Source: Folioceros fuciformis (taxonomy: Eukaryota). Taken from it: 39,236 nt of DNA. Position 1 is the stretch's first letter. Every line of letters starts with the position of its first letter. Made by a program: the position numbers and the translations under genes. A model generated the notes under the pieces. It saw only the letters and a program-made list of their open reading frames with translations, made no database searches and was not told the origin of the DNA. This document shows, piece by piece, positions 1 to 37,259 of the stretch. The stretch is from the NCBI GenBank assembly GCA_049999805.1, contig JBNGIO010006380.1:413578-452813 (forward strand), given 5' to 3'.

Positions 1-3000
1 CGAGGTCGAAGGCGAGGCGAGGTCAAGGCGAGGCGGGCGGGGAGGAGGCGGAGTGAAGCGGGCGGCCAGGAAGAAGACGGTGGTGATGGAGTGGCGCTTT
101 AAAGCCAGAGAGCCTGGCGAGAGCGAGACGCGCTCTGAGGACGTCTCCGACGCGATGATACGGCAAGAGACGCGACTCTGGAGAGAGACACGAAGGGGGG
201 CCAGGAGAAGGGAAGCTTAGAGGAGGTTTGCAGCGTAGGTCGGGGCCCGGGAAAGGAAGCGCGGCTGGAAATAACCCACACGCGCACATAGCCATGCCGC
301 GCTCTCTCTCTCTATCTCTGGAGGCGAGGAAAGAGCGGTGGGGGGCAGCGGAATGGCGGGGGCCGGGTGGAGTCGGGACAAAGGAGGAGGAGGAGGAGGA
401 AGAGGAAGAGGAAAGGAGGTGTGTGTCTGCAAAAGCGCACGGGCGGTCACATTTGTGCTGCCAGACACGTGTCCATTCCGGGACGGCAGATTACATATGC
501 GTCCTGTTTGTATGTATGTATGTAAATACATACAGACATATGCATGTTGTTTATGTCTGGTATCCAGCTACCGTACATAGCAGCACAGGGTGAAGTTTGG
601 CCGCTATTGTGGCGCCGGAGTAGCTATATTTGGAGGCAGCAGGGGAGGCGTCCCTGTCCCCGGGGGTCGCAGTCGCCACCCTGGATCCAAGCCTGGCCAC
701 GGCAAGGGAGGGCTGGGGCCTGGAAGGGCACATCACACCGACACACTTCCCTCGGCAGGGAAGCACAGTTGTCTCGTGTAGGTAGCCTCTGCGCCACAGT
801 TGTCCTGGCTTGGGATTTCTCGGGGAGATTCTTATGCCCCGCCCGGGTTCCCTTTCCGAGTTTTGGGGCAATTTCATATTCGTATTTGCAGCTGCATGGG
901 AGTGGAGTGGGCGGCAAAGGCCTGCAGCGTGCAGCCGTGTAGGGTTTTGGGTGATATTTTACCTGTCAGGAGGGGTGGGCTGGCTGGCTAGGCTGGGCTG
1001 AGTTGAGCTGGGCTTGGCTGGGCTTGGCTTGACGGCAGCACACGCACTGGGCACACGCACACGAACACGCGAATGGATGGATCACGCACTGCAATGGCAA
1101 AGGCAATGGCAATGACAATGCCGTTGTGTGTTACCACTGGTTGTGCGTCATTTTTGGATTATGTAGCTCTTGGGTCCCAGTACCAGCTTACAAGGCTGGT
1201 TGATGATGTCCATGGCTTACGGTGGCCCTCTGAGAGACATGCATGGATGGAGCCACGACGCTTCGGAGCAGCAGATGGCAGGCGGGTACACTTTCCTCCT
1301 TTTGCTGCCGTTACGGCTCCAGAAGATATGATCCTCTGACGTCGCCGGAGCACGTTGTGACAGGCTCGAGATGGAGATGAGGAGGAGTGGTCATCTCGAT
1401 TTTTCACTTGGGCCGGGACTCACTATCGCGTCTTGCCGAGGCAAGAGCTTGGAAAGCGTTTGTATAAAGGAGCGTGTGCATCTAAGTGGATGATGCACAG
1501 ACGGATGCATCTCTGGATATGGATGCTCACCTCACTGGAACGGGGGTCTAGGGACTGGGGTCTAGACTGTTGCGGGATGCTGGTAGATCTGGTTCTGGCA
1601 TGCTCCGTCGGCCATGGTGGTGATTTTCATTTCCGGGGGTCCCAGTCAAGTTGCTGCTCCTGGGAACATGGGCTTTGACTGTACGAAGGGACAAAGGGAG
1701 GAGTATTGTAGGCATTTTTGCTCAGACGGGGGAACAGTATGTCGGGGGCGAGCCGGCTGCCCTCGTGTTGTGAACAGCGCATGCAGCGGCAAGGCTTGGT
1801 GGGGACGTGGGATTGGGGGCACCCAAGTCTTGTTGATGGGTGGACTGGACGAGACAGACCTGGCCAGGCCAGGCCAGGCCAGCCAAGGCCAAAGCCCCAG
1901 GATCAGGCCCAGGCCCAGGCCCGTGCCTGATGACAGGGTGACACACAAGTTGGCCGAGGGCACTAGGGCGGCACTAGAATACCACCAACTGGCCACCTCC
2001 TTGCACTTCCAGCGGGAATCCCAACCATTGTTTCTATTCGGATATTGACGAATATAAAGGAGCGGGTAGCAGAATGCATCGAAACTCGGATTCAGTGCGG
2101 CTTGAATCTAGTTGGAATTCCAACGCCAGCCCAGCCAGTCGGCGGGCCATGGCCCAATCTCCTCATCTCACCGCATTTCTTCTATTGGATCCAACTCCTG
2201 GTTGCCAGCCACTGGTGGGTAAGCCAGTTGATGTGACAAATTTCGGAGCCTGTTAGAATCTAGCATTGTTCCAACTCCACTGTCATCGTGGCATGTGACG
2301 CACCCACTGGCGAAGGCAACCTTGCTGCTCCAACGCATCCTGGATGCATTTATGGTGATCAAGTCCAGGTACTGTATGTTATGTGAGCAAGCAAGCTGGG
2401 TCGTTCACGCAGGCCTGCAGAATCTCATCACGCCATTGCCCATCCGGTCGCTGCCATTTGACCGCCAGGCCCTAATAAAAGGCTTGCAGCAACTGCAAGT
2501 TCTCCAACGCTTGCACCACACTGCACCAGGTGGTGCCGTGCGTGGCCTGGCCCTGCCTTGGTGCCAAGTGCAACAAGCAAGGTGAATATATGCAATGCCA
2601 AGTATGCACATGCACACAGATTTGTAAATCATGTCCATGCTTTCTTCCATATCCCTTCCTCTCTTGGACCCTTCTCTTTTGCCTGCTGGTGCACGTGAGG
2701 CAGTGGTTCGGTCTCCTCCATGTGCTGCGTGTGCCCACCTCAGCCCTCCGAAGCATCGCCACAAGTTCATTATGAAGGCGACGCCTGTCGGTGGGTGGTC
2801 ATTCTTCCCTCCTCTCTCTTTCCCTGGGGCTTGAATCTCGTCCTGTCCAGCCCTTTTGGTGCGGTAATCTTGCGATGTATTACTGCTGCGTATGGTAAGA
2901 AACCGGCCCTGTAGCTTGCAATGAGAGGAAGGTGCAGAGTCAAGTATTGTGGGCACTGTTGAGCCAACGTTGTCCATTGGCGTGGATGAAGGCGGTCAGG

Positions 3001-6000
3001 TCTTATCCTGGGCTTTCACTCACGCACTGCTATTGGAATTCCTTCTTTTGGTGAAACCACTGTTGGCCTCGGCGTTCGCTGGTGGTGAAGGGAGTGCTTT
3101 GGCACACACGGGGGGGGGGGGGAACAAGGGTGGAGTGGGGTGGGGTGGGCTAAGCTAGGCTGGCTGCTTTCTTTTTGGTTTGGGGCAGACAAAAGCATGA
3201 GGCGTGGGATGATTCCCGGCAGGTCGTCAGGGGTTGCCCCACTGCCTGCATCTTCCCCAGTAGGAATGTGGATTATGGTGGAGTAGGTGGGCAGAAATTA
3301 GACTGGCGGCCCAAAGCTGGCCGCGGGATTACAAAGGCTGGTTGTGGGTGTGTATGTGTGTGCGCGCGTGTGGCTACCGGTGGGACCGGTGCATTTTTAG
3401 AATACATCCTGCAACACGCAAGTTGCAACAAGGCACGCACATCAGGCAGCTTGTTGAGCCCAGATGCCCCTGCGCATTACAGGACAAGTCGGGTGTCACT
3501 TTGCAGATACCTTGCAGCTGCACTGGGCAGTTGGGCGTGGCTGCACCTTGATGTGGGATTTGTTTTTTCCCTCGTTTCCTTCCAGCATTGATTGGCACTT
3601 GGCTACGGCGCCTAACTGCACAGTAGCCAGATTTGGGATGTCTGGTGACGTGTGGGCTTTTGTGGATGGAATGTTGGTTGCCTTGATTCGTGAATCAACA
3701 AAGATCAAGGCCTGTAAAAGGATACCCGCTGGGTGTGATGAGAGCCTGGCCTGGCCTGGCCTCGCTTGGCCTGGCCTGCCCCTGGCCTGCCCTGACAAAT
3801 GGAGCTGCAGCCATGCCAGCAGCCCAACAGGGTCCACACAAGCTCACAACCAACAACAGCAGTTGTGTTGCTGCCGCATGCTGCATCGGCATGGGCTCCA
3901 GCCTCCAGGTCCGGATCCGGGGTCCGGGTCCGGATCCGGGGTCCGGGTCCGGGTCCAGGTCCAGGTCAGATCACCCCATTAACGAATTTGATGCCTTCCG
4001 AGAGCTTGCAAGGTACAGGGTGACTGAATCAACAGTTATTCACCTTCTTTGATATGCATTTGGCGTACCAAAGTACCGAGTTGAGCATACCGTCTGTACT
4101 TACGTCCAGGGCTTCTCTCAGTTGTGGGCCATGACCGTCACGTGAACCATTTGGCTTTTATTGCATCCATTTCTTATAAATCGCATGGCAGGGAAAGGGG
4201 AAGACATCTCCAGCTTCCCAATGTCAACAAACACTTGATGCGCCCCCCTGCCCAGTGCCCTGCACTGCCTCTGCAGCAGCCGGCCTGATTAGCGCAGGCA
4301 GCAAGCGAAGCGAACTGGACTGCACAAGCAAAGTAGCCTCAACTGCCGGAAGGAAGCAGCATCCTGGAAAGGGGAGGGGGTCGGGCCCGGCCCGGCCGGC
4401 CCAGGCTCCCAGGTTTAAGTGTGGCATGCCGGTTGTGACTCATTTGCACCACCATGGGCCAGGTTGACCTGTAGCCCACAGCCATTTATTGTGCTTGTTG
4501 ACGACGTTGTTGTTGTGATGACGAAGATTTATGGGTACCGACCGGGGACATGTTTGTTTCCTCATGAAGAACACTCCAACAACACATAAACAGCATGGCC
4601 TTGTTACGTTATAGCTACCATCACGTAATGGTGGTAGCTGCAGGGATATGGGCTCCCACTGGATGTTCGAGTGGGGAGAATATTTGCCCTTTCCCTTGCC
4701 CTTCCCGGGCCTTGCCTTGCCTTGCCCTCTTGTGGTCCCCTTCTGCAATGTGTCGTGGGCACCCGCATCCAGCAACATGCCTGTACCCGCAAGCACACAA
4801 AATATGGTAAAAGGGCCTGGAGCTAGCTAGACATTCTCGACCTTCTTTTCCAACAGACTGTTTCCACGAATCTAAAGGGGACAGGTATTGCAGTAGTACG
4901 CATATCTATGTTGGGCCTCGGCCCAGGGCAATGCCGTGTGTGTGTGCATGAATGTGCACAATGCTCGCCTCGCCGAGGCCTTTCTATGTGAAAAGAGGAC
5001 CCCAGTTGGGTTTGGAGGCTTTGGACTCTTCGGAGCCACACCTTCCTTGCCTGTGTGGCCTGACCTGACTGCCTGACAAAGCTACCGCCACCGAGGAGGG
5101 ATGGCTGGAACCGGAGGCGAGGCCGGAGCAAGACAAGTTGGCAGCTGTGATATGCACACATTTCCACTCACTTTACAGTTGGTTTCCCGGTAGCGAAGGA
5201 CACCTGCTGTGCAGCTTTTCCGAGCACCAGACCTTGGGCAGAAATTCAACACACCCAGCCCAGTATTCTTTCGTGTCACGCACCTGACCTGACTGCCAGG
5301 CAAGCTCACCTCCATGGAACTGGATGCTCGGAGGACATGCACAGGGGAGTGGCCTGTTCCAGAACTGCACGCCTACCTACTGCATATGCCCTGGGTCCAT
5401 GTCCAGCCCCAGGCCTCTCGAGGAGCGTGATCCCAGGCTGCTCTCCCGTCAGTGCACACCACGTGCAGCCCAACCTGACTCCTCCTGCTTCTCTCTGTAT
5501 CTGCTTTTGCTTCTGCATGCCCGTCTGCGTCTGCGTCTGCGTCTGAGGGTTGGCAAAGAGGAGAGGATCCAGCTCTCGGCTCTTACTCTTTACTGTCTAT
5601 CTTGCAGACAACGCAGAGCACCAGCACAGACCGAAGTTCCAAAACCTCTGGTTGGCTCAACACCGATCACACAGGCAACCCATAGGCAGATAACATCCCA
5701 GTTATCATCCCTCCTCCTCCTCCTCCTCCTCCAGGTGGCACCACATCCGTCACTGGAGACATGGAACAGAGTCCAAGCCAACAGTCATGACATCTTCCAG
5801 GTCGCCGCCCCACTCAATAGTTTACTCATTCCCCGATTGCAGATCTACTTTACGCTGTACTGCAATGACATTGTGTGGCCTCTCGCAGAAATACAGAGGA
5901 CGCATCTGACAAAGCTCAACGCCCTAGACAGGGCCTGCCTGTCAGGGCAGCCGCTTTGCTGTGCTACTCTCTAGACTGCTCTGCTCTGGCCTGCCCTGTG

Positions 6001-6300
6001 CACTGTGATGAGAGCCTGCCCTGCTGCGCTCATGCTGTGCTGTGCGGGGGGCGTGCTTTTCTTCCGACAAAAGTGGTCCAGTCGAAGCAAAGGCCAAGCC
6101 CACCACCAGCCCACGCAAGCAAATCCTTCCACACTACTCATCCCGATCGCAAGTCCTGCCCCTCCTACGCACTAATCGCAAGCCGGTCAGCCAGAGTCTT
6201 TGACTCCCCAGGACACACTAATCACCACCCCTTTGTATTCTATCCGACGACCGCAGCTCCCCAAAGGGGACCACACACCTGTCGCTGCCTGTACTTTCCT
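1..6300. other. Unidentified GC-rich block with many short penta/hexanucleotide tandem tracts and decayed exon-like reading frames (possible degenerate mobile element or pseudogene cluster)
   Basis: Tracts: (GGCGA)n ~10-33, (GGGCT/GGCTT)n ~978-1030, (CCAGG)n ~1860-1920, (CCTGG)n ~3745-3790, (GGTCCG)n ~3908-3965, (CCTTG)n ~4690-4730, (CGTCTG)n ~5522-5545. Protein-like frames broken by stops lie between them. No recognisable domain. Confidence 0.35.
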
Positions 6301-7579
6301 AGAAGCCAGCGAGCTGCTTGTCTTCCCCTCAAAAGTGACCTGTAGCCCTCTTTACTGGGATTCACGCCCCTTGCTCTCCATTATTGTGCCCTCAATCCTC
6401 TACGTACGCAAGTACAGCATGGCGTTGGACAGGGCTGAGCTACGCTGCACTGCTCACTGATGAGCACTGGTATGCGAGTAACTGAATCGGTCCGGCTGGC
6501 TCCGTCTACTGCTCTTTCTTCTGCTTGTGCTCCTCCTCTTATCAGGCATTGCAGGAGCAACAGCTACAACTCAGTACAGAAGGTTTGTTGCTTCCTCGCC
6601 ACAGCAACGCACCTGGAGAAAAGCGTGAATGAGACATTTATCTGCCTGCACACTACGTAGAACTTACTGATTGATGTTGCCACCAACTACCCACAAAGGG
6701 AGGAGTGCACTATCGAGTAGAAAGAAAAGGTTATCCTAGTACAGATTCGGATCAGGTCTCCTGAGGTCAGAGAAACCGGCGCCAGAGCCGGCTTCAAACC
6801 TCATCTTGTCGTAACAGCACATGCCGGCTTCAATGTTGCATCTTCTGGTGACAAAGCATCAGATTCTGTGACGTGATGATCCCACTTCTCATCAGCGGAG
6901 TGCTGTTCATGCTGTTCGGCACCACCCCCAAATCCCAACACGCGTGCTTCTGCAGGAAGGTTGTGTTGACGACTGAGGAATATGCATTCACCATTCCAAT
7001 TGCGAGTGAACCAATGTGGGTCCTGGAGACCTTCATAAGAAAGGGAAGTGTTTGCCGTTGAGAAAATACCATTCGGACAACCGTGTTCTCCTCAACCTCT
7101 CTCTGAGAGATTACAGTTCATTTGGACTTGGTCTCTGCTCTAAGTCATCCAGACGGAACCGACTATGGTCCTCTGATGCAGAAGAGGTAGGCCAGTCCAG
7201 GTCAAGGCAAAGGACCTTGACTTGAAGTCGGGCACCATGGGCCCTGGGTCCTAAAAATCCGCACCCGTCACAAGCTCTAGTCTCGTGTCTGAGCCTCAGT
7301 ATGTGACGGGCAGATGACTCTTCATTTCCTTAACACCCAGGTCGACAGGTTGTCACAAGAGCACATAGTGCTATGTCCGATTTCAATTATGGATGGCCTT
7401 ATCCCTAGCCCCTCTGCGGTCAAAACTGCCAGCAAAACCATCCACGTGCACTTGCAAGTCAGTTCTGCGCTGAGTTGCTATCTCGAACTTGGAAATGATA
7501 AATACAAGCTTGCTTACAAGGTCGACAACTTGGCAGACAGAAGATGACCTACTAACAATTCTGATAATCTCTGCGCACG

Positions 7580-9399: not shown

Positions 9400-11930
9400 G
9401 CCACCACAAAAGAAAGAAAGAGAATATCATTCTTATGACTATGTTAAACCTACGCACTCCTTGAAGAACCTTGAAAAGTCCTTGCCCATGGTTCGATGAG
9501 TCTTAAGAGCAAAGGGGATGAAAATATTGCTCATCTTGTAGAAGAGAATATTTATGGACTTTGGCACTTGCACAACCCTCTACTGCCCATCTAGGGGAGT
9601 TGATGACGTCATGCTCGCAAATCGAATCCCTAGTGGGATATGTAACAATCACATCAGCAACACAAAAATGTTTCTCCCTAGTGAAGAAAAAGTTGGCTCT
9701 AAGTGAAACCTGTGGACACTCCCTATACGAAAGAAACCCACACTCCCCACAAGACAACGTGCTAGATGAGACCCTGTATATGACAATAGCAACCCTACAA
9801 CTACATGTAGAGAGATAAAAAGCCAAGGGGTAGACCAAACGTATGCGAAAGTTCATTGCAATGGTGGAAACTATAAATGCGATTTGAAACACTTGCATGC
9901 AAGATTGAGCCAAAAGCTAAGAGCCCACTCCATTACCTGAACAAGAGCGAATATGAACCCGAGAAGACCTAGAGAAGGATGAGTCTAAAAGAAGGGCTCT
10001 TAGTGCTTGGTCATATTGCTTTTCCACAAGGAAGCCTGGAGATCACTCAACCCTTCCCTACGAAAAGAGGTGAAAAGAGGTAGAGCCTCACAAGCCTCCA
10101 AAGGTAAAGAGTCCCTTAGTTGCCTAAGAGATACGTGTAAAGGGAAAACTCCCTCCTCAATGCCTGATATAAAACTTTTAAGAAGAGGAGAATCTTGCAG
10201 CAAAAACCGAGAGGCCAAAATTGGATTCGAGAGTGCCCAACTACCGAGAAAGGCAGTTGGGGTAGAGGTGTCCATGGCCAAAAAGCCAAACCCCCAAAGG
10301 TGACTGACAAGGAAGTATGCTTTCAAGCCAAATCACCGACGGCACACTCGAAGGTGCAAGGACCTATGATGTCCTCAAGAGCTTGCACAACTTGATTATT
10401 GAACTTCTTTAGACTTAATAAGAAAACTGAAGGAGACATAATAGTTCTAGTGAGGTAACTCGATTGCCACGGAAAACAAGTAGAAAGAATACCAAATGCA
10501 ATCTAAGGGTCATTGATTTGTGAGAGGTTCATGATATGAGCTAAATCTTCATTCAATGTTGCATCCACAAAGCTATGAATAAAATCAAGAAGTCCCACAA
10601 GAACACCCAAGACTTAAAGTTCTTGCGAGGGGGCAATATCCCCCCCTTGCTCTCTCGAATATTGAAGGAGGGGGGGAGTGATGCCTAAAGGGGACCAAAC
10701 CTTACATTTAGACAACTTAACCCTCAACCCCAGCTAAGAGAGCTTTGATGAGAAGAAATCAAATGTTGCTTTAACTATGACTTTTGGCCTAAGAATATGA
10801 GTGCAATCAGCCACAGATGGGAAAAGGCATTCCGGAAACACCAAGTCCATAGTAGACATCACTTGAAAATGCACCATTGCAAAAAGAGCACCTCTTAGCA
10901 GAACCCCTTGACCTATGCCTATTCCTGAACAAAAAATTAAGACCCCTTTAATATGCATTGGTAGTAGAGCTTGGATGGTGAGCCACAGAAGGAGCGAACA
11001 AAAGGAATGAGATGAGCTAATTGACTTTTTGCACTCGTGAGCTTTGAGAAGATGGAAACAGTGTTGAAAGCATTCTTGATATCAACCTGCAAAGGTACTC
11101 AGTGAGGATGTAACTTGATGGTTGCTTGAATACCAAGGGCAGTAGATTCACACCTACCTGAGATAATAATCCCAAATTGGTGGGGTGCAAGATACGCTTG
11201 GAAGTGCTCCCGAAGTTGAATTTTGATACTTCAGCTGATAAGGTGCAAAAACACTCCCCCACAGCAAAAGGACACACTTATGAGGTGGGTTTTCTAAAAA
11301 TAGCAGCCTACTAACTGTCAAACATGAAGATTTCAATTTGGAACTTCACCCTTAGTTATCGCTAGTGTAAAAAGTTTCGAAAAACCACTTAAAAGATACT
11401 CAAGAGAAAAATAATCTTAAAAAGGTCATAAACTATGCCAATAAACCCCTAAAGAAATCTACAGCACATAGTGCATGACCGAAAACAACCCTATCCAAGC
11501 ACAAAGGCTCCTTGCGGTATAGTGTCATGAGGTTTTGGGTACAGGCAACGAACTCAATCCGATGGTGTCCTTTAGTTGCAAATGTTGCTGGCTCCAAGAG
11601 CAGTGCTCCACCAACCCGAGCATATTCATCATTCCTTTTCAACATGAGACATCACTTGAGATGCCCTTTAAATAGGTCATGACAAACTTTGTCAACCTTA
11701 AGCTGACTCTAAACGAAATTTTGTTACTAATAGATCCTCCATTTGAAGAACTTATCGATCTCCAAATCAAAAACGGCCAAGTTGAAAGACCATATTCACT
11801 ATAACCTAAAGGACTACCCTAGAACGATGAAGCACCATTTGGAATTTGAGGAGAGAATTGAACAAAATCCAAGCCATCCAAATCCCTCCCAAGCAATGAT
11901 CCCACGAACATAGAAAGCAAGGCGAATATC
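9400..11930 (-). mobile_element. Degenerate non-LTR retrotransposon with RT and C-terminal CCHC/restriction-like endonuclease (CRE-like); boundaries approximate
   Basis: Minus-strand fragments in the expected order: CPFAVGE (cf. RPIAVGE), QVGV, QVDIKNAFNTVS (~11055-11090), GIGQGVLLRGALFAMVHF (QGDPL motif), SVADCTHIL (YADD), LGLRVKLSKC, GFGF...AFLGSWA, RIRLVYP..TCSC..LSCGECG, ADVIVTYP, AKVHKY, FHPL. Many stops and frameshifts. Confidence 0.85.
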
Positions 11931-12030
11931 ATCATTATTATATTCCATAATTCATAATTAGGACATCAAGCTGTTTTGGCGTTTGGCCATCGAAATCCTC
12001 TGCATTGAGCTTGCTATTGCTGCTGTGGCT

Positions 12031-14712
12031 ATGCTAACAACGTAGCCCTCGTGCCACGACCTGCAGAGCTTGTCGTGCGTGTCATTTTCCCAGAGCAGTG
12101 CCAGGAAGATGGGCACTGTGTGGAAACCAGATCTGTTGTGGACTCATCAAAGTGGCGGGTGTGCAGGGATTCTACCAGAGGCTCCAGTGCAGCTCACCTC
12201 GGGGAATCAGTCGATAGCAATCAGCCAAGCCTCCAGGTGCACCAGTGTAAGAAACCCAGCCCCTTCAATTCCTAGAAAACCTGTGCCTGGGGAAGGATTA
12301 TACACCGAAGGTCGTCGCCAAGAGCAAGAGGTATTGTGGCAACAATTTTTCTTGGATCCTACCATGTGGTGGAATAATAGGCGGGATAAGAAGGGCTCCC
12401 GTTCGCCTGACTTCCGCCATAAGGGATCCGGCGTGGTCCTCTGGTTAAACAATGTATCCAAGCCCATTTGGGTGGATGAGCGGCTCGTTTCTTTAGATAT
12501 GCAGGTGTGTCATGGTGTCTCTCCTTCCAAGTCCAGCTTTCTGGATAGGCCTGAGTTTTACAGTGCTGCAGAATCGGGAATGGGCACAGCGGTTGTAACT
12601 GTGAGCACCTTATGTCAGCAGGGGAAGCTTACGGAGGCCGTTGAAGCCCTGGAATCTCTGGCCCAGACTGACTATCCGGTTTCTCAGTCCCGATAGTATG
12701 GTGTACTGAAGCTGTGTGCAGCTAAGAGGGATCTGGTAGTGGGGCGACGAGTGCATGATCTCATTGTCAAGCTTGGGTACGAGTCGAATACATATTTCGG
12801 GAACCATTTGTTGCGCATGTATGCATGTGGGGGTAGGCTACAGGAGGCCATGGATGTGTTCACCAGGGTGGGCAAACCAGATACCTTCATGTGGGTTTCC
12901 ATGATCTCTGCATATGCCAAGCATGGCAAACCTAGGGAGGCCATACAACTGTACCATGAGATGCGTAAGTCAGGTGTGAAAGCGAATTCTCACGTCTTTG
13001 TAGCTGCCCTTCAAGCCTGTGCGTTTGCCACCGACTTGGAAGCTGGCAAAAGTGTGCACTCGGAAGTGTTGCAAAGCGGCATTCCTCCTGATTTGTTTGT
13101 CGGCACGTGCCTCGTGGACATGTATGTGAAATGCGGGCATCTGGAAGGTGCACGCACCGCCTTTTATAGCATGGCCACAAAAAATGTGGTGACATGGTAT
13201 GCCCTGATTGCGGGGTACACAAATCATGGTCTCGGTCAGTAAGCGCTTGTTCTTTATGGACAAATGGAGCAGGAGGGACAAAGTTGTGGCAGAACATGTT
13301 ACTTTTGCTTGCCTTCTCAAGGCCTGTGCAAGTGCAGGTGCTTTACAGAAGGGTAGGCAGCTGCACTCACAGATTGTGGAAAGGGGACAGTTAACATACT
13401 GGTGGGCACTTGTCTAGTGGATATGTGTGCAAAGTGTGGTGAAATGGACGATGCTCGCCAGGTTTTTGACAACTTGGCGACTAAAAATGTGGTGACATGG
13501 ACAGCCCTGATTGTTGAGTATGCAAATCATGGACTTGGCCAAGAGGCTCTTGTCCTGTATGGTCAGATGGAGGAGGAGGGTCTGATTGTGGTTGACCAGG
13601 TTACTTTGTCTTGCCTTTTAAACGCCTGCGCAAGCGCTGGAGCCCTGCAGAAGGGGAGGCAGCTGAGCTCACAGATTGTGGAAAGTGGACAGCTTGATGA
13701 CGTAGTATTGGGTAACAGCCTGGTGGACATGTACGCAAAGTGTGGAGAACTGCAAGAGGCACGCAAGGTCTTCGATAACTTGACCACAAAAAACGTGGTG
13801 ACATGGAATGCCATGATAGCTGGGTTTGGTACCTGTGATGAAGGTCACAAAGCGGTAGCTTGTTTTGAGGAGATGTTGGCCGCCGGTCTTCAGCCTAGCG
13901 ATGCTACGTTTACTTGCCTTTTAGCTGCGTGCAGTCACGGGGGTCTGGTGAATGAGGGTCGAAAGCACTTCGATTCCATAGTTGAACAGCATGGTATGAA
14001 ACGCACCGTTGAGCACTACATTTGCATGATTGATCTTCTTGGGCGGGCAGGTTATCTAGAAGAGGCAGAGAGCATGCTACTAACATGCGAGAGCAGCCAA
14101 AGCAATGTTGTTGGGTTGACATCTCTGCTGAATGCCTGCAAAAGGCACGGGGATATAGAGATGGCAACACGGTGTTTTGAAAGCCTTGTTAGACTGGAGC
14201 CTCATCAGGCACCTGCTTAAGTGCTCATGGGCAATGTGTATGCCGAGGCCGGTAGGTGGACCGACGCAGAGAGGATTGAGCGACAGAGAATGGTAGCAGG
14301 AGCTAGCAAGAAACCTGCAGTGGCGGGCATTGAGGTGAAGAAACAGGTACATACATTTGTGGTGGGCGAAAAGAGAGCTGATATTACGCTCACGGTGGAG
14401 AGCATGAATCCACGTTTGAAGGAGGAAGGAGGCCACTTGCCGCGCACAAAGTTGGTGTTAAAGTCCATGTCTGAGAAGGAGAAGGAGGATGCGCTTTGTG
14501 GGCATGCTGAGAAGCTAGCTCTGACGTATGGTCTTTTGAATACCCCGAGTGGCACTCCTCTGTTTGTAACCAAGAATCTACGCATGTGCAGTGATTGCCA
14601 CAGTTCCACCGAGATCATGTCAAGAGTTGAACAGAGAGACATTGTTGTACGGGATGGGTACCGCGTACATCGATTTGCAAGGAGTTCTTGCAGTTGCAGG
14701 GGTCGACCGTGA
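12031..14712 (+). pseudogene. Intronless PLS-class PPR gene: PDF motif + about 15 PPR motifs ((PLS)x4, P2-L2-S2) + E1-E2 + DYW:KP domain ending in GRP; disrupted by stops and frameshifts
   Basis: ORFs 12070-12696, 12739-13242, 13208-13417, 13402-14220 and 14221-14712 join into one PPR array. In-frame stops at 12043, 12694, 13240 and 14218; frameshifts near 13280 and 13395. C-terminus KKPAVAGIEV...CGHAEKLA...KNLRMCSDCH...HRFARSSCSCRGRP*. Start at ATG 12031 is tentative. Confidence 0.93.
12334..12486 (+). other. OSB-type PDF motif coding segment at the N-terminus of the PPR gene
   Basis: LWQQFFLDPTMWWNNRRDKKGSRSPDFRHKGSGVVLWLNNVSKPIWVDERL matches the remembered consensus of the organellar ssDNA-binding (OSB) PDF repeat: W..FF..P..WWDNR..K....PDFKHK.TG..LW......WV...L. 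Confidence 0.88.
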
Positions 14713-15923
14713 GAATGAGGATCAACTTGCCAGTGTCCAACAAGAGAGCCCCTGGATTCCGGGGGAAGAAACAACAGCCTCCTCAGTAGGATGTGAGAGC
14801 CGAAAGTGGTCTGTACGAGGCATGTAATATGAACTTTAGTCCATTGGAAAAGAACATGTTGGAACCATCGTCCTTGTGATGCTCTACGTATGATCGGCAT
14901 GTTTCTGGAGTAATTCTGGTTCGTCTTCCAAGTGACTTGACACAAGCTGTGACGCTGAGCTCCAGACTCAAAACACAGAGCTCCAAAAACTGAGCACGTC
15001 CAGACCTTGGCAGGGCTCTCTTCTGAGGTTCTCTTCGTTCCAGTTCTTCTTCTTCGAAGAGCTCGGTCTGACTGAAGCAGCCCTTTCAGCTGGAGGTGTG
15101 TGCCACGATTTCCTAACTTCATTAAATCCACGTCCATTTACTCACCTAAAGATGAGGCCGATTACCGTATCTATCGTGAGACTGTAAGCTGTCCCCGTAC
15201 GCGTGTGGCTGTCCTGATCCTCATTCATATTTTCGGTGTCTCTGAGTAATCCAAGGCAGTGCGCTGTACGGCCAATTTCTGTGTTGGCGGTTGTCGATTG
15301 TGGGTTAGGCTGATGGAGTGCAGGATTCACAGCTGCATTCTGGATCTGGGCACTTGGGATCAGGGCTCTAAGAAGGGACTGGTATAGACGACCGAGTCCT
15401 GTGATTGCTGTGCGGATGTCGTGTCGGGTCGATTTACTCGAGGAAGACCATTGGTGCATTTGTGGACTGCTTCTGCACTGCTGCAGGAGGCGTGTTACGG
15501 TGTTTGTAGCCGACCTGTGGGTGGTTTGGAGCCGGAATTTGGAGCTTCGTTGGTGGAGGAGTCCTTCGAGGAAACACATCATGCCAACTCTTAAGCAGAA
15601 AGTGGAGTGATGTGGTGTGACGCTACACGCTGCACTGGAATCCGTCCTAAGACAGCCTTTCTTTACGTTGTTGAGGAAAGAGGTAGCAGTGAGGTGATTT
15701 TACTGGTGCTGTACTGATGCCAAAAACGTCGCAGATGTTGTTGAAACTTCTGATTGGAAGAAGCTTGGAAGTTCAGGTGCTTGATGTGGCTGACAAACGA
15801 GATGCACAGATGGATGGAATCTCTGTGGGAATCCACAACGTCGTCCAAGTGATTCTGCCTGCTGTGGATCGGAGAAACGGTGGATGCCACGTGAGCAAGG
15901 TGTCTGCCGACCTTTTACTGGTC

Positions 15924-18432
15924 ATGCAACCTCTCAGATGCCTGAGCTCTCTCTCGTGGTCACTTTCGAGCGAGGCACTTAATTGGCACAGAGTAGCTGG
16001 TAGGAGTTGTGTTCATCGTGAAAGTGTGACTGTTTTGGACTCTTCGAGGGATGCACCTGCGTTTTCTTTGGGAGGGTGCTGGAGGAGGTTCAGAGAATTA
16101 GGTTACATGGATGTTCTGACGAGTACCATAAGCTTCGACAATAGTGCCTTCGGAGTGTTCGGACTTTCCACCTCCCTGAGGAGACAGGCGAAATGTAGAG
16201 ATGTCAATTACGCCACTCTGCAATTTGAGCTTGTGAACCAGGAAGATGATGGCCTCGCACATGAAGGCAGGGTGGAGGATTCTGAGGTTGTCCAACCTAC
16301 TTCGGACAATCTTTCCAAAACAGTCGTGCAGGCAGGCGAACCCGGCATCCAATCTGGAATTGGTGTCAATGGTACTGGTGAATCTGATTTTGGGAGTGAG
16401 ATCTTTGTCTGCGGTAAGGATCAGGATCATAGCCTAGTGCGGGCTGCGGCTTTTTCAACTGGTTCTGAAGCCTGTGCATCCAAGACCCATGGTGCCTCAT
16501 GCCAGGAAAAAAAGGCCCCTCCTCCTGAGAGTTGGTGGAGTATTGGGGATTCCATTTCGGAGACATTACATCTACCCAACGGCTTCGATCAACAAGTAGA
16601 GGTACTTTGACTGATGAAGCTCTGTTGTTTGCTTAGAACACTGTTTGGAGGTTCCGCAGTCGCATTTACTGTGTCAATTGGCAGAAGTTATTTAATGCGC
16701 TCAAATGCCGACTGGACTCTAGAGAACTTCTGTTGCGAGTTCTGGTGGGTTTTGTTTTTTCAAAGTCATGTTCAGTATTTTGACGCAAGTTGGCATACGC
16801 ACCCGTTGTCTGCACCGTAGGCTGGCTATGTATCTCGTGGCAACAACAGAATCGCAGTAGATGATCTGGCTCCTTTGAGAGCCTGTCTTGTGAAAAGCGC
16901 TGCGAGATTTCATGGCCAATCAGGAACTGAAGTCCTACCTCAATTAGGTGCACAGGAGCTATTACGAAGCCAACATGCCAGTTGCAATCCGGGATCAGAA
17001 AAAGACAACACACTGCAGAGGTTCAGCCCCTGCTGTCAATCCAGATGGAACGACGGAGGCTATCTCCGCAGTTACTTTCTCAGAGTGTCACTTCCAGGTA
17101 CGTAGTCCTCTGTTTTCGTATGAAGGGTGTGGTGAATAGGAGGAATTGTTCAGATGGGTGTCTTACAGAGAACCGTGCAGGCACGACAGAATCTGGCTCT
17201 GCTTGGCGATGGTTTGCTCAGTTTCATCACCATTGAGAGTTTGATTCATGAACGGGCCTTCCAAGCAAGTGTGAGCCTTGAAAAAACGTTTCCAATCTTG
17301 AAACAAGCTCCTCCTTGTAGCTACTGTTCTGTCAGTTAACACATTGCAAGGTTTCTGTCACTGCGACTTCGTAAGAGCTGCATCTAACGCCATGTTTCAG
17401 GGCGGCGAGATCACCCAACGTAGGTCTCAGCTAGTAAGCAGCTTCTTCGTCGTGCTGTGTATTTCACTAGTCTGTGTTTTTCGAAGCTGGGTGCCATTTT
17501 GTTGATGCGGCCAGCTAATCAGCAATATGTTGGCAGGTGTGTAACAACAATCTGGGACGAGTTTGGTCATCTTTGGGCCTTGACGATTTGCCCTTGGCGC
17601 ATCTATCTGTCGCTGAAAGAAACGGCTCGAAAACTCAGGTTCCTTCCCATCTTAATGTCTCTTTGCTTCCATCTCTGTTGATTTTATACCGAGTGGAATG
17701 CATGACAACTGACCACTAGATCCACAGGTGCACCTTTATTCTGATACATTTGAAGCGCTTCTTGGGGCTTTGAATGAAGAGAAGGTATGTTCTCCTGCTG
17801 TCAGCATGAATTGTCTGAACTCTGAGGTCACGTTAGTTCAAGGTCTGTCAATTCTGTGCACATATCCAACCTGTCCTGGAATCCTGAGCCATATAGTGTG
17901 GGGTTTTTTGTTTCTTTTTTGTCAGGGTTGCAAGTGGGTTGCAGACTTCGTAAAACAACAAGTCTTACCACTTCTGTGGGGTGTAGACAAGGTGAGGCCG
18001 GGCTGTGCTGGACGTAGAAATCACGCGCTTTGTAACTTCTCGTTGAGATGACAACCTTGCAATTCGTTGAATCTTATAGGGGTTGCTTGTGTACCACTTC
18101 AGGTACCAAGCCCCATTGCCTCGCTCCAAGAGCTTACAATGGTTTCCCTTCACGTCACACCAACCTACAAGTCAGTCCCTCATTACCTGGTCTTTGTTTC
18201 CTGTCGAGTATCGCAGTATCCTTACTTTCATGCCAACAGGTTGATTGGTATCGACAACAAGGACACGCTGCTGCAAGTATTTCGAGTCCGAGTGTATGTG
18301 AAAGGTGTTCGAATGGCCACAGGGTTGGGCTCATCACACAAGCTCGCCAAACAGGATGCAGCTAGGAAAGCAGTGCTGAAGTGGCCAGAGCGGATTGACT
18401 TACTGTCAAAGCTTCCAGGACATAATACATGA
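15924..18432 (+). CDS. RNase III-family protein (one RNase III domain + C-terminal dsRBD) with long N-terminal extension, probably organelle-targeted; 10 exons ~15924-16601, 16685-16744, 16948-17097, 17181-~17270, 17401-17433, 17537-17638, 17728-17784, 17926-17991, 18103-18170, 18240-18432
   Basis: Spliced: KLFNALKCRLDSRELLLRVL|VHRSYY...|ARQNLALLGDGLLSFITIESLIHE...|GGEITQRRSQL|VCNNNLGRVWSSLGL...|VHLYSDTFEALLGAL...|GCKWVADFVKQQVLP...|VPSPIASLQELTM...PTYK...VFRVRVYVKGVRMATGLGSSHKLAKQDAARKAV. GT-AG junctions are in phase. The start codon and exon 4 edges are less certain. Confidence 0.88.
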
Positions 18433-18734: not shown

Positions 18735-20153
<1,419 letters not shown>

Positions 20154-24764: not shown

Positions 24765-26311
24765 TTATGAAAGAGAATTTCCAACGTTCCGCTCGCATCC
24801 AGGGCAATTGTGCAGGCTCTCATGGATATAGATATCACAGTCGAAGCAAAAATGCTGGCCACAACGTGGACACGAGAGCCTGACTCCCTCGCTTCCACCA
24901 CCTGAAACCATACATAACAGGCCCTCAATCATCATCCACCTGGTAGATCAGGCAGGCAACGAGGGAAGGAAAAGTTTAAGCTTACTCCCTACCAGGAAGA
25001 GGGAGATCCTGCTGGCATCCGAAACACATCCTCGACGGTTGCTGGTTGCCGTTCAAGACCTTGGTTAGGAGTGCAACCTCTTCAAAAGGAGGCACTGCAA
25101 AGAGGTGGTGGTATGACCTGGCTAAATGCGGAGCCGACACGAGCGTCAGGCCACAAACATTGCATTCAGTCGGCAGGTCACAAATCCGTGCCCTGCAGCG
25201 GGGGCAAGTGTAGCCCCCTCCCACCTTCACTTCCCGATGGCAGGCACAGATGGCCACCACGCCTTCCGTTGCTTTCTGCGGAAAGCCCATTCGCACCAGA
25301 CTGGCTACCGACGACTTGGCCAAAGCCGGAGGAGGGGGTGCATGCTCTAGAACCAGCTCACGCATATGCGACTGCAGCACCTCATCCAATTGTCCCAATC
25401 ATCCATCCACCCAGTTGAAAAGGAAAAAGAGCGAAAGTTCGAACCTTGTTGAGAGGTGCCGAGGAGGAAACGACAACAGGGTGGAAATTTGGAAAAACCC
25501 TACCTCGGTAGTGGCCACCGAGTACGTTCCACCAGTGCGCTCGCACAGCAGCTTGCACACGAAGATCTCGGCAGCCAGACCGACCACGGAGCAACGGATG
25601 TTGGCTTCATGGCACTTCTTGATGGAGTCCATGATGTCCCCGGGGTCGCATGTGTTGAGCGCAGAGAAGAGAAGCAGCACTTCCCGGTGGCCATAGGTGG
25701 GGATATCACACAAGAACCCTCGAGCGCAATCCAGCGCGTTTTGGATGGACGCCTCTCCCACGCACTCCATGTTCGAGCGAAGACACCTGATATGCGACTC
25801 CGGGCTGCCGCTCAGATCCGTGAGCCGTTGCGCCACACCGTCCCTTATCACAATCAACCCCAGGTGGCTCAGCGGATTCTGATCGAAGAACTCTCGAATA
25901 AACAACTCCACGCAGTTCACGGCCAGTGCCATGCGGCTGGGCCGGAAGTCCGTCTCCGCTGCTGCCTAGTCACATAAGCACAAGCATGAGAGGAGCGTGA
26001 ATTTATCATCGACATGCCGCAGGCCTCACACTTGTGCCTCCTACCCGAGAGAAATCCACTACCACGTAGAGGTAGCGAATGATCCCGCGCTGTACGTGGG
26101 GCACAGCGATGGAGTGAAGACGCCGCCGCTGCTCCCGCTGCTGCTCTACAATGTCCACCGGCCGCAGCCTGCCGTGCTCGTCCTCCTGCAGCGTCTCCCA
26201 TGATCTCTCATCCGCATAAGCTCTCTCCCAGGCCTCCATCGTTTCTACTGCATCTTCGTCCACCTCCATGTCCTCCCCGTCTTCCTCCGGTTTCCGCCCC
26301 GCGACCTCCAT
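24765..26311 (-). CDS. GTF2H2: General transcription factor IIH subunit 2 (p44/Ssl1), 4 exons ~26311-26045, ~25965-25505, ~25371-24993, 24901-24765
   Basis: WERAYADERSWETLQEDEHGRL, RGIIRYLYVVVDFS, DFRPSR, FFDQNPLSHLG, TCDPGDI, MGFP, the C4 finger CPRC...LPTECNVCGLTLVSAPHLARSYHHLF and the C-terminal finger CFGCQ...CPRCGQHFCFDCDIYIHESLHNCPGC. Confidence 0.96.
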
Positions 26312-26569
26312 CGCCACTCCCTCCACTCCCCCCCTCCTCCTCACTCTCGCCCAGCTTTCTTGACGGTCGGCGGAAACAACATCAACCGTTTGTATGTCCA
26401 TGTCCTTTTAATCCTATGCAGTCTACTGTAACGATGTTCAACATACGTACAGGGGAACAACTCCACAACATGTATATACATACATGCCTCACCATGTTCA
26501 CTCATGCAAACTACCGAGGAGGTCATAGATTTGCTAGTTTCTATGTCAGTTAATAAATAGAGAAATCCA

Positions 26570-31400: not shown

Positions 31401-32269
31401 TTGTTGAGCAAAAATCGGAGAAGGCATGACTGGTGTACTCCCCTCCATTGTCAGATCGAAATATCTTAAGCATGCACCTTGTCTGTCGTTGTGCCATGGC
31501 CACATAGTCTTGAAAATAGGCGAAGGTGTCACTCTTGCTATGCAGCACATAAACTGAACAATAACGACTCCATTCATCGATGAAGGTAAGAAAATAAAGG
31601 GCACCTCCAAAAGACGCTGTGGACATTGGACCACATAGATCACTGTGGACTGTGTGTAAAAAAGAAGTGGCTCGTGACAGGTTTCGATCTCGGAAGGGCT
31701 GGGAAATAGCTTTGCTAACCTGGCAGGAGTCACAAAAGGCTTGCCTATCAAAGGGGAAAGACAATTGATCATGAAAAACAGTATTGTTGACCAAGGTGGA
31801 AAGCCTCTGGAAATTGACATGGCCTAGGCGATAGTGCCATAGTTGCATTGGAGATAAAGAAGGAGATTGACTAATATGGACAGTGGGCTGGTGTGGTACA
31901 GTTCTAACGTTTAAAAGGTACAGGTCATTAAAGGGAGTGCCTGAAAAAATGTCATCCCAACCAGGTATACGAGATATTGAGCAACCTGTGTGATCAAAGC
32001 AGATACGACAAGAGTGCTCTTCTGCTAACTTCATGATCGACATAAGATTCTTGGTCATGGCTGGGACATGAAGCATGCCTGACAAGGTCATGACCTCAAA
32101 ATTAGGCAACTCGATGGTAACTGAACCCGAACCTTTGATGGCCAGACCACTGTCGTCCCCTAGCAAAACAAATTGCAGACTGTCAAGAGTAGAGGCAAAG
32201 TTGCTAAAAGCTCTCCTATCATAGCAAATGTGATTTGTGGCATCAGAGTCCAAAAAACACATATCAACC
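28494..32269 (-). mobile_element. Ty1/copia retrotransposon A (protease-integrase-RT-RNase H), degenerate, interrupted just upstream of the protease; tentative 3' LTR 28494-28755
   Basis: FLDSDATNH (PR), LWHYRLGH, HSDLCGP...RSDNGGEY...AERKNRTL (IN), YKSRLVAKGYSQ, HQLDVKTAFLHG, LYGLKQS, YVDD (RT), LSSTEAEY...HARSKHIE...ADVLTK (RH). PR-IN-RT-RH order defines copia. A weak PPT (AAGCAAGGTGAG) precedes TATTAG at 28755, so the LTR limits are uncertain. Confidence 0.93.
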
Positions 32270-32476
32270 AGTTAGAATTGCATGCGGAAGCGTCTTAAAC
32301 AAAGATGCTATATTAACAAAAGTTAAAATTAGTGTGTTCATAGGTAGGCTTTTATAGGTGGTCTCCCAAGGGATGTGTCCTTTCGCTAGCCTGGCTAACT
32401 ACCTATATTAACTGCTAGGTCTAGTTGACTAACCATATTAGTACAGAACCAATGTGGTCTGCTATTATTTCTAACT
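32270..32476 (-). mobile_element. 207-bp 3' LTR of copia element B with 8-bp inverted termini AGTTAGAA...TTCTAACT
   Basis: The minus-strand polypurine tract TGAGAGGGAG directly abuts the segment. It contains CTATAAAAG. Its far end abuts the protease region of element A. Confidence 0.75.
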
Positions 32477-37250: not shown

Positions 37251-37259
37251 CCAGCCACC

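What the first reader, a model, noticed from the sequence alone, without database searches (positions are those of the whole stretch)
12334..14712. OSB-type ssDNA-binding PDF motif fused to a PLS-PPR-DYW:KP (GRP) editing factor
Seen: a full PDF motif (LWQQFF.DP..WWNNR..K...SPDFRHK.SG..LWL......WV...L) lies in the same intronless frame as, and ~35 codons before, the first PPR repeat, after an S/R/P-rich transit-peptide-like leader. Known: PDF motifs are the ssDNA-binding modules of plant OSB proteins (organelle genome maintenance), while PLS-E-DYW proteins are organellar RNA editing enzymes. I do not recall this combination being described. Inference: a subfamily of editing factors may be tethered to organellar nucleoids or transcription bubbles (co-transcriptional editing), or the motif may add non-specific single-stranded nucleic acid affinity. 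This copy is disabled, so intact paralogues are the real target.
Basis: partly seen in the sequence, partly recalled or inferred. Interest (0 to 1): 0.82.

Follow-up and report, generated by a model that had tools for sequence, protein, structure and literature searches.

The report
OSB DNA-binding motif on editing factors
A dead copy of a plant organelle RNA-editing gene carries, ahead of its RNA-reading repeats, a small module otherwise known from organelle DNA-binding proteins, and intact genes with the same build exist in mosses, clubmosses and ferns without apparently having been described.

Summary
Window 12313-12498 (+) encodes one OSB-type PDF motif. It lies in the same frame as a PLS-type PPR tract, an E region and a DYW:KP domain ending in GRP (12109-14712).

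- **Match to OSB motifs:** the motif matches 588 database proteins at E<=1e-3. These include SSB-fold proteins with 2-13 copies. It keeps 16 of the 18 columns that are >=80% conserved in 152 SSB-linked copies.
- **Pseudogene:** the window copy has three nonsense codons and a compensating frameshift pair. Four of these five lesions recur without differences in contigs from a second study.
- **Recurrence:** the architecture is not a one-off. 56 database proteins (isoforms included) have 1-3 PDF motifs directly N-terminal to a PPR tract. They come from Diphasiastrum complanatum (at least 30), Adiantum, Ceratopteris, Pteridium transcripts, Sphagnum and unnamed assemblies.
- **Conservation and fold:** the motif is their best-conserved segment. 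It is predicted to fold as a small domain on a disordered linker.
- **Literature:** ten full-text searches found no description of the combination.
- **Function:** binding of single-stranded nucleic acid is inferred from OSB precedent and was not tested.

Verdict: a new variant of known kinds. Interest 0.65.

The parts
12109..14712 (+). Whole pseudogene reading frame: leader, PDF motif, linker, PLS PPR tract, E region and DYW:KP domain, ending in TGA.
   Evidence: The intact relative P0140 aligns over the whole length in frame +1.
12109..12312 (+). N-terminal leader (68 codons) with no family match. It may be a targeting peptide.
   Evidence: Pfam finds 0 families. The matching part of P0140 (residues 1-73) is predicted disordered, pLDDT <50. 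Composition. Targeting was not testable.
12313..12498 (+). OSB-type PDF motif, one copy of 62 codons. The P-D-F signature is at 12406-12414.
   Evidence: 588 hits at E<=1e-3; 83.5 bits to the profile; 16 of 18 OSB-conserved columns kept; AF2 pLDDT 89.3, helix-strand-strand-helix.
12499..12588 (+). Linker of 30 codons between the PDF motif and the first helical repeat.
   Evidence: for coordinates. The matching part of P0140 (140-160) has pLDDT <50. Mean pairwise identity among relatives is 0.30 here against 0.55 in the motif.
12589..14130 (+). PLS-class PPR tract, with triplets repeating every 302-306 nt.
   Evidence: Pfam PPR, PPR_2 and PPR_1; direct repeats D1 and D2; alignment to P0140.
12694..12696 (+). 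Nonsense codon TAG (lesion 1).
   Evidence: Exact contigs of X1 and X2 cover it.
13240..13242 (+). Nonsense codon TAA (lesion 2). The next PLS triplet has E at this position.
   Evidence: An exact X3 contig, 12991-13325, covers it.
13278..13283 (+). One-base frameshift (lesion 3). Until the next shift the PPR-like text reads in frame +3.
   Evidence: Repeat spacing changes from 303 to 302 between 13277 and 13284. The frame +3 ORF 13208-13417 holds the PPR text. A relative's contig lacks one base at 13283 (table 4).
13391..13401 (+). Compensating one-base frameshift (lesion 4). TAG 13354 lies inside the shifted stretch.
   Evidence: Repeat register returns between 13390 and 13402. Frame +1 reads sensibly again from about 13402.
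14218..14220 (+). Nonsense codon TAA inside the E region (lesion 5).
   Evidence: Exact X3 (14129-14313) and X2 contigs cover it.
14131..14334 (+). E region (E1/E2-like TPR-type motifs).
   Evidence: Pfam E_motif at 27.2 bits on the half after the stop, and TPR_14 on the half before it. The full E_motif scores 43.8 bits in P0140.
14311..14325 (+). K-P box, standing where canonical DYW domains have the PG box.
   Evidence: The same text is in P0140. [quoted passage not shown]
14431..14709 (+). DYW-type deaminase-like domain of the KP kind. It has HAE at 14503-14511 and a CxxC(H) at 14587-14601, and the last three residues are GRP.
   Evidence: Pfam DYW_deaminase, 111.2 bits, E 2.1e-32; coordinates. 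GRP is given as a named DYW:KP variant in PMC9478123 (passages).

Best explanation
**Shown**
- The locus is a dead copy (three nonsense codons and two frameshifts) of a gene for an organellar PLS-E-DYW:KP editing factor.
- Its N-terminus carries one OSB-type PDF motif.
- This is one member of a real and widespread class. PLS-type PPR proteins with 1-3 PDF motifs directly ahead of the PPR tract occur in a moss genus, a lycophyte, several ferns and this organism.
- The motif is the most conserved part of those proteins.

**Inferred**
- The PDF unit is a small, self-folding, aromatic and basic domain. It hangs on a disordered linker of about 20-30 residues at the end of the PPR superhelix that reads the 5' side of the target.
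- As in OSB proteins, it most likely binds single-stranded nucleic acid without sequence preference.
- That would raise the factor's dwell time on, or local concentration near, its substrate. It could do so by holding ssDNA of the transcribing nucleoid or by holding the nascent RNA upstream of the PPR footprint.
- The PPR tract and DYW:KP domain would then do the specific recognition and the U-to-C chemistry.
- The window copy itself makes no working protein.
For: **Identity of the motif**
- 588 hits at E<=1e-3.
- hits include proteins with the Pfam SSB fold plus 2-13 motif copies. 62 of the 150 listed have an SSB-like domain by phmmer.
- named OSB1 and OSB2 proteins of Elaeis, Morus, Cannabis, Humulus and Nelumbo match a PPR-linked copy at 55-63% identity.
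- the window copy keeps 16 of the 18 columns that are >=80% conserved in 152 SSB-linked copies. The two misses are D to N and K to R.

**Recurrence of the fusion**
- 12 of the 150 listed representatives.
- 33 of 43 hits: 30 Diphasiastrum and 3 Sphagnum.
- 3 of 3: two Adiantum species and one unnamed.
- In all, 56 database proteins, isoforms included, always with the motif(s) N-terminal to the PPR tract.

**Fusion present in RNA**
- P0091, P0127 and P0128 are ORFs of Pteridium aquilinum transcripts.

**Constraint**
- Mean pairwise identity among 31 such proteins is 0.55 in the motif, 0.26 in the leader, 0.30 in the linker and 0.47 in the rest.
- The two Adiantum orthologues are 0.88 identical in the motif and 0.80 in the rest.

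**Fold and tether**
- AF2 of the window motif gives pLDDT 89.3.
- In intact P0140 the leader (1-73) and linker (140-160) have pLDDT <50. The motif and the PPR solenoid are folded.

**Chemistry**
- The window copy has 5 W and 3 F in 58 residues and pI 9.5. PPR-linked copies have mean pI 8.5 and SSB-linked copies 7.5.

**Precedent for ssDNA binding**
- Passages of PMC6963530 and PMC4166229.

**Pseudogene**
-. Exact contigs of a second study carry 4 of the 5 lesions.
Against: - No binding data exist for any PPR-linked PDF motif.
- OSB1 and OSB2 are reported to prefer ssDNA over RNA (PMC4166229 passage), so an RNA-clamp role is not supported by precedent.
- No evidence here places these factors at nucleoids.
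- The closest intact relative, P0140, has a worn motif. The P of the P-D-F signature and one W are replaced, and it scores 57.1 bits against 83.5 for the window. Constraint may therefore be relaxed in this particular KP subfamily.
- The 58-column tree does not resolve whether the fusion arose once or several times: there are 17 separate all-PPR clades.
- Conservation was measured on proteins only. No dN/dS was computed.
- The fold has no solved relative from which to read a binding mode.
Confidence: 0.55

Rival explanations
1. The PDF module on PPR proteins is a protein-contact module rather than a nucleic-acid binder. It would dock the editing factor to OSB proteins, to other PDF carriers or to editosome partners.
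For: AtOSB2 is reported to assemble as a tetramer (PMC6963530 passage). Tandem PDF copies are common (1-13 per protein), which would also fit a contact module. Non-seed plants are said to lack seed-plant cofactors such as MORF (recalled, not checked here), so another partner-recruiting device is conceivable.
Against: The PDF motif of AtOSB1 is reported to be sufficient for ssDNA binding (PMC6963530 passage). 15 of the 18 columns conserved in SSB-linked copies are also >=80% conserved in PPR-linked copies, among them the aromatic and basic ones, which fits a retained binding surface. No partner is known.
Confidence: 0.15
2. The module is a functionless passenger. An exon-shuffled OSB fragment would have been carried along as the PPR family expanded by retroposition or duplication.
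For: PLS PPR families expand massively. 1,375-2,130 contigs at >=90% likeness pile up on this gene in each of four runs, and the largest all-PPR motif clade is 30 Diphasiastrum copies. One founder event could therefore explain many carriers. P0140's motif is partly worn.
Against: The motif is more conserved than every other segment across moss, lycophyte and fern proteins (0.55 against 0.26-0.47). It is retained between two Adiantum species at 0.88 and among Sphagnum paralogues at 0.77 where their leaders share only 0.30. It is always in the same position.
Confidence: 0.08
3. The juxtaposition is a one-off chimera of this pseudogene, or an artefact of gene models or assembly.
For: The window copy is broken. 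Many database carriers are automatic gene models named 'hypothetical protein'. One PDF carrier, the Coptis kinesin model P0051, looks like two merged genes.
Against: In the window the motif and the first repeats share one uninterrupted frame, 12109-12693. P0140 is a single 753-aa protein predicted on an unnamed assembled contig. Pteridium transcript ORFs hold motif plus PPR. 56 proteins from at least seven named species share the order. Exact contigs from two studies reproduce the window sequence.
Confidence: 0.02
4. The window gene is functional: the in-frame stops are assembly errors or are bypassed.
For: The motif and the DYW active-site residues are intact. A contig of run X3, guessed to be RNA, starts 18 nt before the ATG.
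Against: There are five lesions. Four of them (TAA 13240, both frameshifts, TAA 14218) lie in zero-difference contigs of X3, which is from another study than X1 and X2. TAG 12694 lies in X1 and X2 contigs. No mechanism is known that edits nuclear mRNAs of this kind (recalled).
Confidence: 0.03

Closest known systems
[quoted passage not shown] Arabidopsis OSB1-4)
   Same: They have the same roughly 50-60-residue PDF motif. Named OSB1 and OSB2 proteins match PPR-linked copies at 55-63% identity. The window copy keeps 16 of the 18 OSB-conserved columns. Both are organelle-related nuclear genes.
   Different: OSBs have a central SSB-like OB fold with the PDF motif(s) at the C-terminus (passages of PMC4166229 and PMC13393729). 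Here there is no OB fold (Pfam gives 0 families on the N-terminal 216 residues). The motif is N-terminal and is followed by PPR, E and DYW.
PLS-E-DYW:KP editing factors, GRP variant (candidate U-to-C editors of hornworts, lycophytes and ferns)
   Same: It has a PLS PPR tract, an E region, a DYW-type domain with a K-P box, HAE and CxxC, and a C-terminal GRP (PMC9478123 passages).
   Different: The papers read here describe these proteins as PPR tract plus C-terminal domains. An N-terminal PDF module is not mentioned in the passages seen. This copy is a pseudogene.
Editing-factor domain fusions such as ORRM1 (MORF + RRM) and RRM-PPR fusions
   Same: In both, a sequence-specific or catalytic editing component is joined to a generic nucleic-acid-binding or accessory module (PMC13386178 passages).
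   Different: The accessory module here is the OSB PDF motif. That survey does not list it: 0 occurrences of 'OSB', 'PDF' and 'single-stranded'. Its named carriers in these searches are all non-seed plants.

Membership tests
PDF motif (the module defined in OSB proteins) | A motif of about 50 residues with a conserved Pro-Asp-Phe signature | tested here: met
   P-D-F is at 12406-12414 within a 62-codon unit. The definition comes from a PMC6963530 passage.
PDF motif (the module defined in OSB proteins) | Significant sequence likeness to the PDF copies of OSB-type proteins (SSB fold plus PDF) | tested here: met
   E-values run down to 1.3e-71. The hits include P0013, P0029 and P0004, which reach Pfam's SSB gathering score, and P0028, P0037 and P0002, which match SSB below it (21.0-23.0 bits against a cut-off of 26). 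The window copy scores 83.5 bits to a profile of 416 copies and keeps 16 of 18 conserved columns. Named OSB1 and OSB2 are linked through P0149.
PDF motif (the module defined in OSB proteins) | Binds single-stranded DNA | not testable with these tools
   Known only from reports on AtOSB1 and AtOSB2 (passages).
OSB protein family | A central SSB-like OB-fold domain | tested here: not met
   Pfam at E<=10 finds no family in 12109-12693 or 12301-12510, and none in 12046-12693. The body of the protein is PPR, E and DYW.
OSB protein family | PDF motif(s) at the C-terminus | tested here: not met
   The motif is N-terminal, residues 69-130 of 867.
PLS-class PPR-DYW editing factor | Tandem PPR repeats of P, L and S types | tested here: met
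   Pfam PPR at 2e-22 and 2.7e-39 and PPR_2 at 1.4e-39. The triplet period is 302-306 nt.
PLS-class PPR-DYW editing factor | E motif(s) between the PPR tract and the DYW domain | tested here: inconclusive
   E_motif scores 27.2 bits against a cut-off of 27.3, on the half that lies after stop 14218 (profile positions 27-63). TPR_14 matches the half before it. The intact relative P0140 scores 43.8 bits.
PLS-class PPR-DYW editing factor | A DYW deaminase-like domain with HxE...CxxC | tested here: met
   DYW_deaminase scores 111.2 bits over profile positions 1-91 of 93. HAE is at 14503 and CxxC at 14587.
PLS-class PPR-DYW editing factor | An intact reading frame | tested here: not met
   Three nonsense codons and a frameshift pair, reproduced in public contigs.
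DYW:KP subtype, GRP variant | K-P in place of the PG box, and a C-terminal triplet GRP instead of DYW | tested here: met
   The K-P box is at 14311-14325 and the last residues are GRP. The criteria come from PMC9478123 passages. That the name 'KP' refers to these two residues is partly recalled.
DYW:KP subtype, GRP variant | U-to-C editing activity | not testable with these tools
   Reported for designer KP proteins (PMC9478123 abstract and passages). The window copy is a pseudogene.

The most novel reading that the evidence does not exclude
PDF-PPR proteins are an ancient class of land-plant editing factors, present from mosses to ferns. They would carry their own single-strand DNA anchor and so edit at the transcribing nucleoid (co-transcriptional editing). 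The class would have been lost in seed plants, where separate cofactors took over the affinity-boosting role. The PDF module would then be a natural, transferable enhancer for engineered PPR C-to-U and U-to-C editors.
Probability: 0.15. Interest if true: 0.8.

Novelty: new variant of a known kind. Interest (0 to 1): 0.65.

Why it matters
PLS-DYW proteins are the enzymes of plant organelle RNA editing, and DYW:KP proteins are the only known candidates for U-to-C editing. The papers read here describe them as a PPR tract plus C-terminal domains.

A conserved N-terminal module borrowed from organellar ssDNA-binding proteins, present on dozens of factors in a lycophyte and on orthologues in ferns and Sphagnum, would mean three things:
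1. PDF motifs are not exclusive to OSB proteins.
2. A physical link between editing factors and single-stranded DNA or nascent RNA becomes directly testable with a defined 60-residue domain.
3. Builders of synthetic PPR editors gain a candidate affinity module.

It also offers a predicted fold (pLDDT 89) for the PDF motif, for which no solved relative was found here.

Tried and rejected
**Searches that returned nothing**
- Word-index search with the window motif, lengths 'longer': 3 candidates, none scored. The exhaustive search was needed.
- Pfam on the motif and leader at E<=10: 0 families. Pfam seems to hold no PDF model.
- PDB sequence search: only a chance hit, E 1.1.
- Fold search of the AF2 model. 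Foldseek against the PDB gave 0 matches at E<=1e-3. VIA-align over 48,161 chains gave a best Z of 4.3 and none >=5. This is no evidence that the fold is new.
- The window's own genome is not held, so paralogues could not be listed from the assembly.
- Earlier findings of this scan: nothing by words, sequence or place.

**Tests without a usable result**
- Homodimer test of the motif (complex prediction): no support, score 0.04. This is no evidence either way.
- Sequencing runs: no RNA holder is listed. Run X3 is only guessed to be RNA. It has no cover at 11334-12001 where DNA runs go on, and its exact contig starts at 12091. At most this is a weak hint of transcription from a single study.

**Papers not available**
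- Zaegel et al. 2006, the paper that defined the motif, is not held. What it says is taken from passages in reviews.
- Supplements of PMC13393729 and PMC13386178 were not seen. They could list PDF carriers or domain fusions that bear on novelty.

**Step stopped**
No profile-based named search or covariation analysis of PPR-linked motifs alone was therefore made.

**Reading rejected**
- That the TAG at 13354 is an independent lesion. It lies in the frameshifted stretch.
Full report
**What is in the window**

The window is plant nuclear DNA. Besides the finding it holds:
- a polyubiquitin gene (19215-20150, four ubiquitin units);
- an Ssl1/TFIIH-p44-like gene on the minus strand;
- copia-type retroelement remains.

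No genome is held for the window.

In frame +1 a single reading frame runs from ATG 12109 to TGA 14710. Its parts are:
- a 68-codon leader;
- a 30-codon linker;
- a PLS-type PPR tract with a triplet period of 302-306 nt;
- an E region;
- a DYW-type domain (Pfam DYW_deaminase, 111.2 bits).

The DYW-type domain has a K-P box at 14311, HAE at 14503 and CxxC at 14587, and its last residues are GRP. PMC9478123 (abstract and passages) names the PG box, the active site and the C-terminal triplet as the regions that separate DYW:PG from DYW:KP. It gives GRP as a named KP variant, described there for hornworts. Calling it a hornwort would be inference only.

**The copy is dead**

- Frame +1 has stops at TAG 12694, TAA 13240, TAG 13354 and TAA 14218.
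- Between about 13285 and 13400 frame +1 reads nonsense, while frame +3 (ORF 13208-13417) reads good PPR text.
- The spacing of the PLS-triplet repeats changes from 303 to 302 between 13277 and 13284, and back between 13390 and 13402.
- There is therefore a pair of one-base frameshifts, and TAG 13354 lies inside the shifted stretch.
- That makes five lesions: three nonsense codons and two frameshifts.

Public contigs with zero differences cover all of them.
- X1 and X2 (one sample, possibly the source of the assembly) cover TAG 12694.
- X3 (same organism label, another study) covers TAA 13240, both frameshift sites and TAA 14218.

**The motif is a true PDF motif**

- Pfam has no match, and a word-index search found nothing.
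- The exhaustive phmmer search of 1.84 billion representatives found 588 proteins at E<=1e-3, 141 at E<=1e-10 and 16 at E<=1e-30. Many of them hold 2-13 copies.
- Of the 150 listed, 62 have an SSB-like domain by phmmer with one query, 12 have a PPR tract and 76 have neither by these crude tests.
- Pfam matches the SSB fold in P0013, P0029 and P0004 above its gathering score, and in P0028, P0037 and P0002 below it. That is the OSB build described in passages of PMC4166229, PMC6963530 and PMC13393729.
- A PPR-linked copy (P0149) matches proteins named OSB1 (Elaeis guineensis) and OSB2 (Morus, Cannabis, Humulus, Nelumbo) at 55-63% identity.
- The window copy scores 83.5 bits against a profile of 416 copies.
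- It keeps 16 of the 18 columns that are >=80% conserved among 152 distinct SSB-linked copies. The two misses are conservative.

**The fusion recurs in intact genes and transcripts**

- All 12 PPR-bearing hits have the motif(s) at the N-terminus.
- Names: Adiantum capillus-veneris (P0039, P0081), Ceratopteris richardii (P0114), Diphasiastrum complanatum (P0104, P0147, P0149), Pteridium aquilinum transcript ORFs (P0091, P0127, P0128) and unnamed assemblies (P0006, P0097, P0139, P0140).
- One search returned 43 hits:
  - 30 Diphasiastrum PPR proteins;
  - 3 Sphagnum PPR-DYW proteins;
  - 10 SSB-fold proteins.
- One search returned 3 hits: two Adiantum species and one unnamed.
- Over all proteins fetched, 56 plus the window copy have 1-3 motifs, always before the PPR tract. 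Isoforms of one locus are included in that count.
- Carriers end in DYW (P0104, P0187, P0209-P0211), in GRP (P0140, the window) or within or after the E region. The module is therefore not tied to the KP type.
- P0140 (753 aa, predicted on a single unnamed contig) is 43-50% identical to the window protein over its whole length. It has the same K-P box and GRP end.

Contig depth summed over the motif bin 12336-12502 is about 40 times the single-copy flank in X1 (363 against 9.1). The leader bin is only about 2 times the flank. This suggests many paralogues in this organism share the motif. Contig depth is a poor measure, however, and the copies could not be listed.

**Constraint, fold and position**

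- Among 31 carriers, mean pairwise identity is 0.55 in the motif, 0.26 in the leader, 0.30 in the linker and 0.47 in the rest.
- On a 58-column tree the window copy is sister to P0140 (support 0.83).
- Both sit in a clade of 14 (support 0.90). It is made of fern and unnamed PPR-linked copies plus three short fragments, two of which (P0127, P0131) run on into PPR-like text.
- PPR-linked copies form 17 separate pure clades, so one origin or several is unresolved.
- AF2 with a 32-row alignment folds the window motif at pLDDT 89.3 as helix, two short strands, helix.
- In the full model of P0140 the leader (1-73) and the linker (140-160) are below pLDDT 50. The motif and the PPR solenoid are folded. 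This is the picture of a small domain on a flexible tether.
- The window copy has 5 W and 3 F in 58 residues and pI 9.5. PPR-linked copies are on average more basic than SSB-linked ones (8.5 against 7.5).

**How it most likely works (inferred)**

Reviews report two things about the motif:
- the PDF motif of AtOSB1 suffices for ssDNA binding;
- OSB1 and OSB2 prefer ssDNA to dsDNA or RNA (passages).

15 of the 18 OSB-conserved columns are also >=80% conserved in PPR-linked copies. The simplest reading is that the single-strand binding surface is retained.

The module is tethered at the end of the PPR tract that reads the 5' side of the target. From there it could do one of two things:
- hold RNA upstream of the footprint.

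Nothing here separates these two. A protein-contact role or a passenger status remain rivals.

**Novelty**

Ten full-text searches were made:
- Four gave no relevant paper:
  - 'PDF domain' plus pentatricopeptide: 0 papers;
  - 'PDF motif' plus 'RNA editing': 0 papers;
  - OSB plus DYW as whole words: 1 paper, an Arabidopsis PPR localisation study judged incidental from its listing (title and abstract start) only;
  - the motif words: 1 irrelevant paper.
- The other searches listed nothing relevant by title.
- In some searches the only listed paper with 'PDF motif' beside 'pentatricopeptide' or 'PPR' is PMC6963530, a review of mitochondrial DNA replication components. Only its PDF-motif and reference-list passages were read, not where it mentions PPR.
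- The 2026 OSB-evolution paper has 0 'PPR' (passages).
- The 2026 kingdom-wide survey of editing-factor domain fusions has 0 'OSB', 'PDF' and 'single-stranded' (passages).

Subscription papers and supplements were not seen. Zaegel 2006 is not held.

I therefore rate this as a new variant of known kinds, probably undescribed. The caveat is that the proteins themselves sit unremarked in public proteomes.

Noticed in passing
window 19215-20150 (+), open frame from 18735: Polyubiquitin gene with four head-to-tail ubiquitin units (Pfam ubiquitin, 4 stretches, E 1.4e-128).
   Followed up: partly
window 24985-26407 (-): Exons of an Ssl1-like (TFIIH p44-type) gene. Pfam Ssl1 scores 9.6e-62 on 25402-25965. 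The neighbouring ORFs gave no Pfam match.
   Followed up: partly
window 28891-32271 and 32720-37258 (-): Two copia-type retroelement remains in tandem orientation, both interrupted by stops. Domains found are RVT_2, rve, gag_pre-integrase and Pol_BBD.
   Followed up: partly
window 12500-14700: 1,375-2,130 contigs per run lie on the PPR-DYW body at >=90% likeness. This includes run X4 of another organism label. It indicates a very large family of near-identical PLS-DYW genes in these organisms.
   Followed up: no
P0002 (Kingdonia uniflora, 1160 aa) and P0003 (719 aa): Proteins with 13 and 9 PDF-motif stretches, far above the 1-5 copies given for OSBs in the passages of PMC13393729. They may be real expansions or merged gene models.
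   Followed up: no
P0051 (Coptis chinensis, 1526 aa): A gene model joining an N-terminal part with three PDF copies (Pfam found no SSB fold in it) to a kinesin motor. It is probably two neighbouring genes merged.
   Followed up: partly
window 14217-15137 (-): A 306-codon open frame antisense to the DYW domain and its 3' flank. It was not searched and is likely spurious.
   Followed up: no
window 1-6400: A GC-rich stretch (0.53-0.60) with long overlapping ORFs on both strands and runs of E, S and L codons. It looks like simple-repeat or low-complexity DNA.
   Followed up: no
window 15052-16000: Run X3 (guessed RNA) has exact contigs here, but none at 14841-15007. The 305-codon ORF 15693-16607 (+) has no Pfam match.
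   Followed up: no
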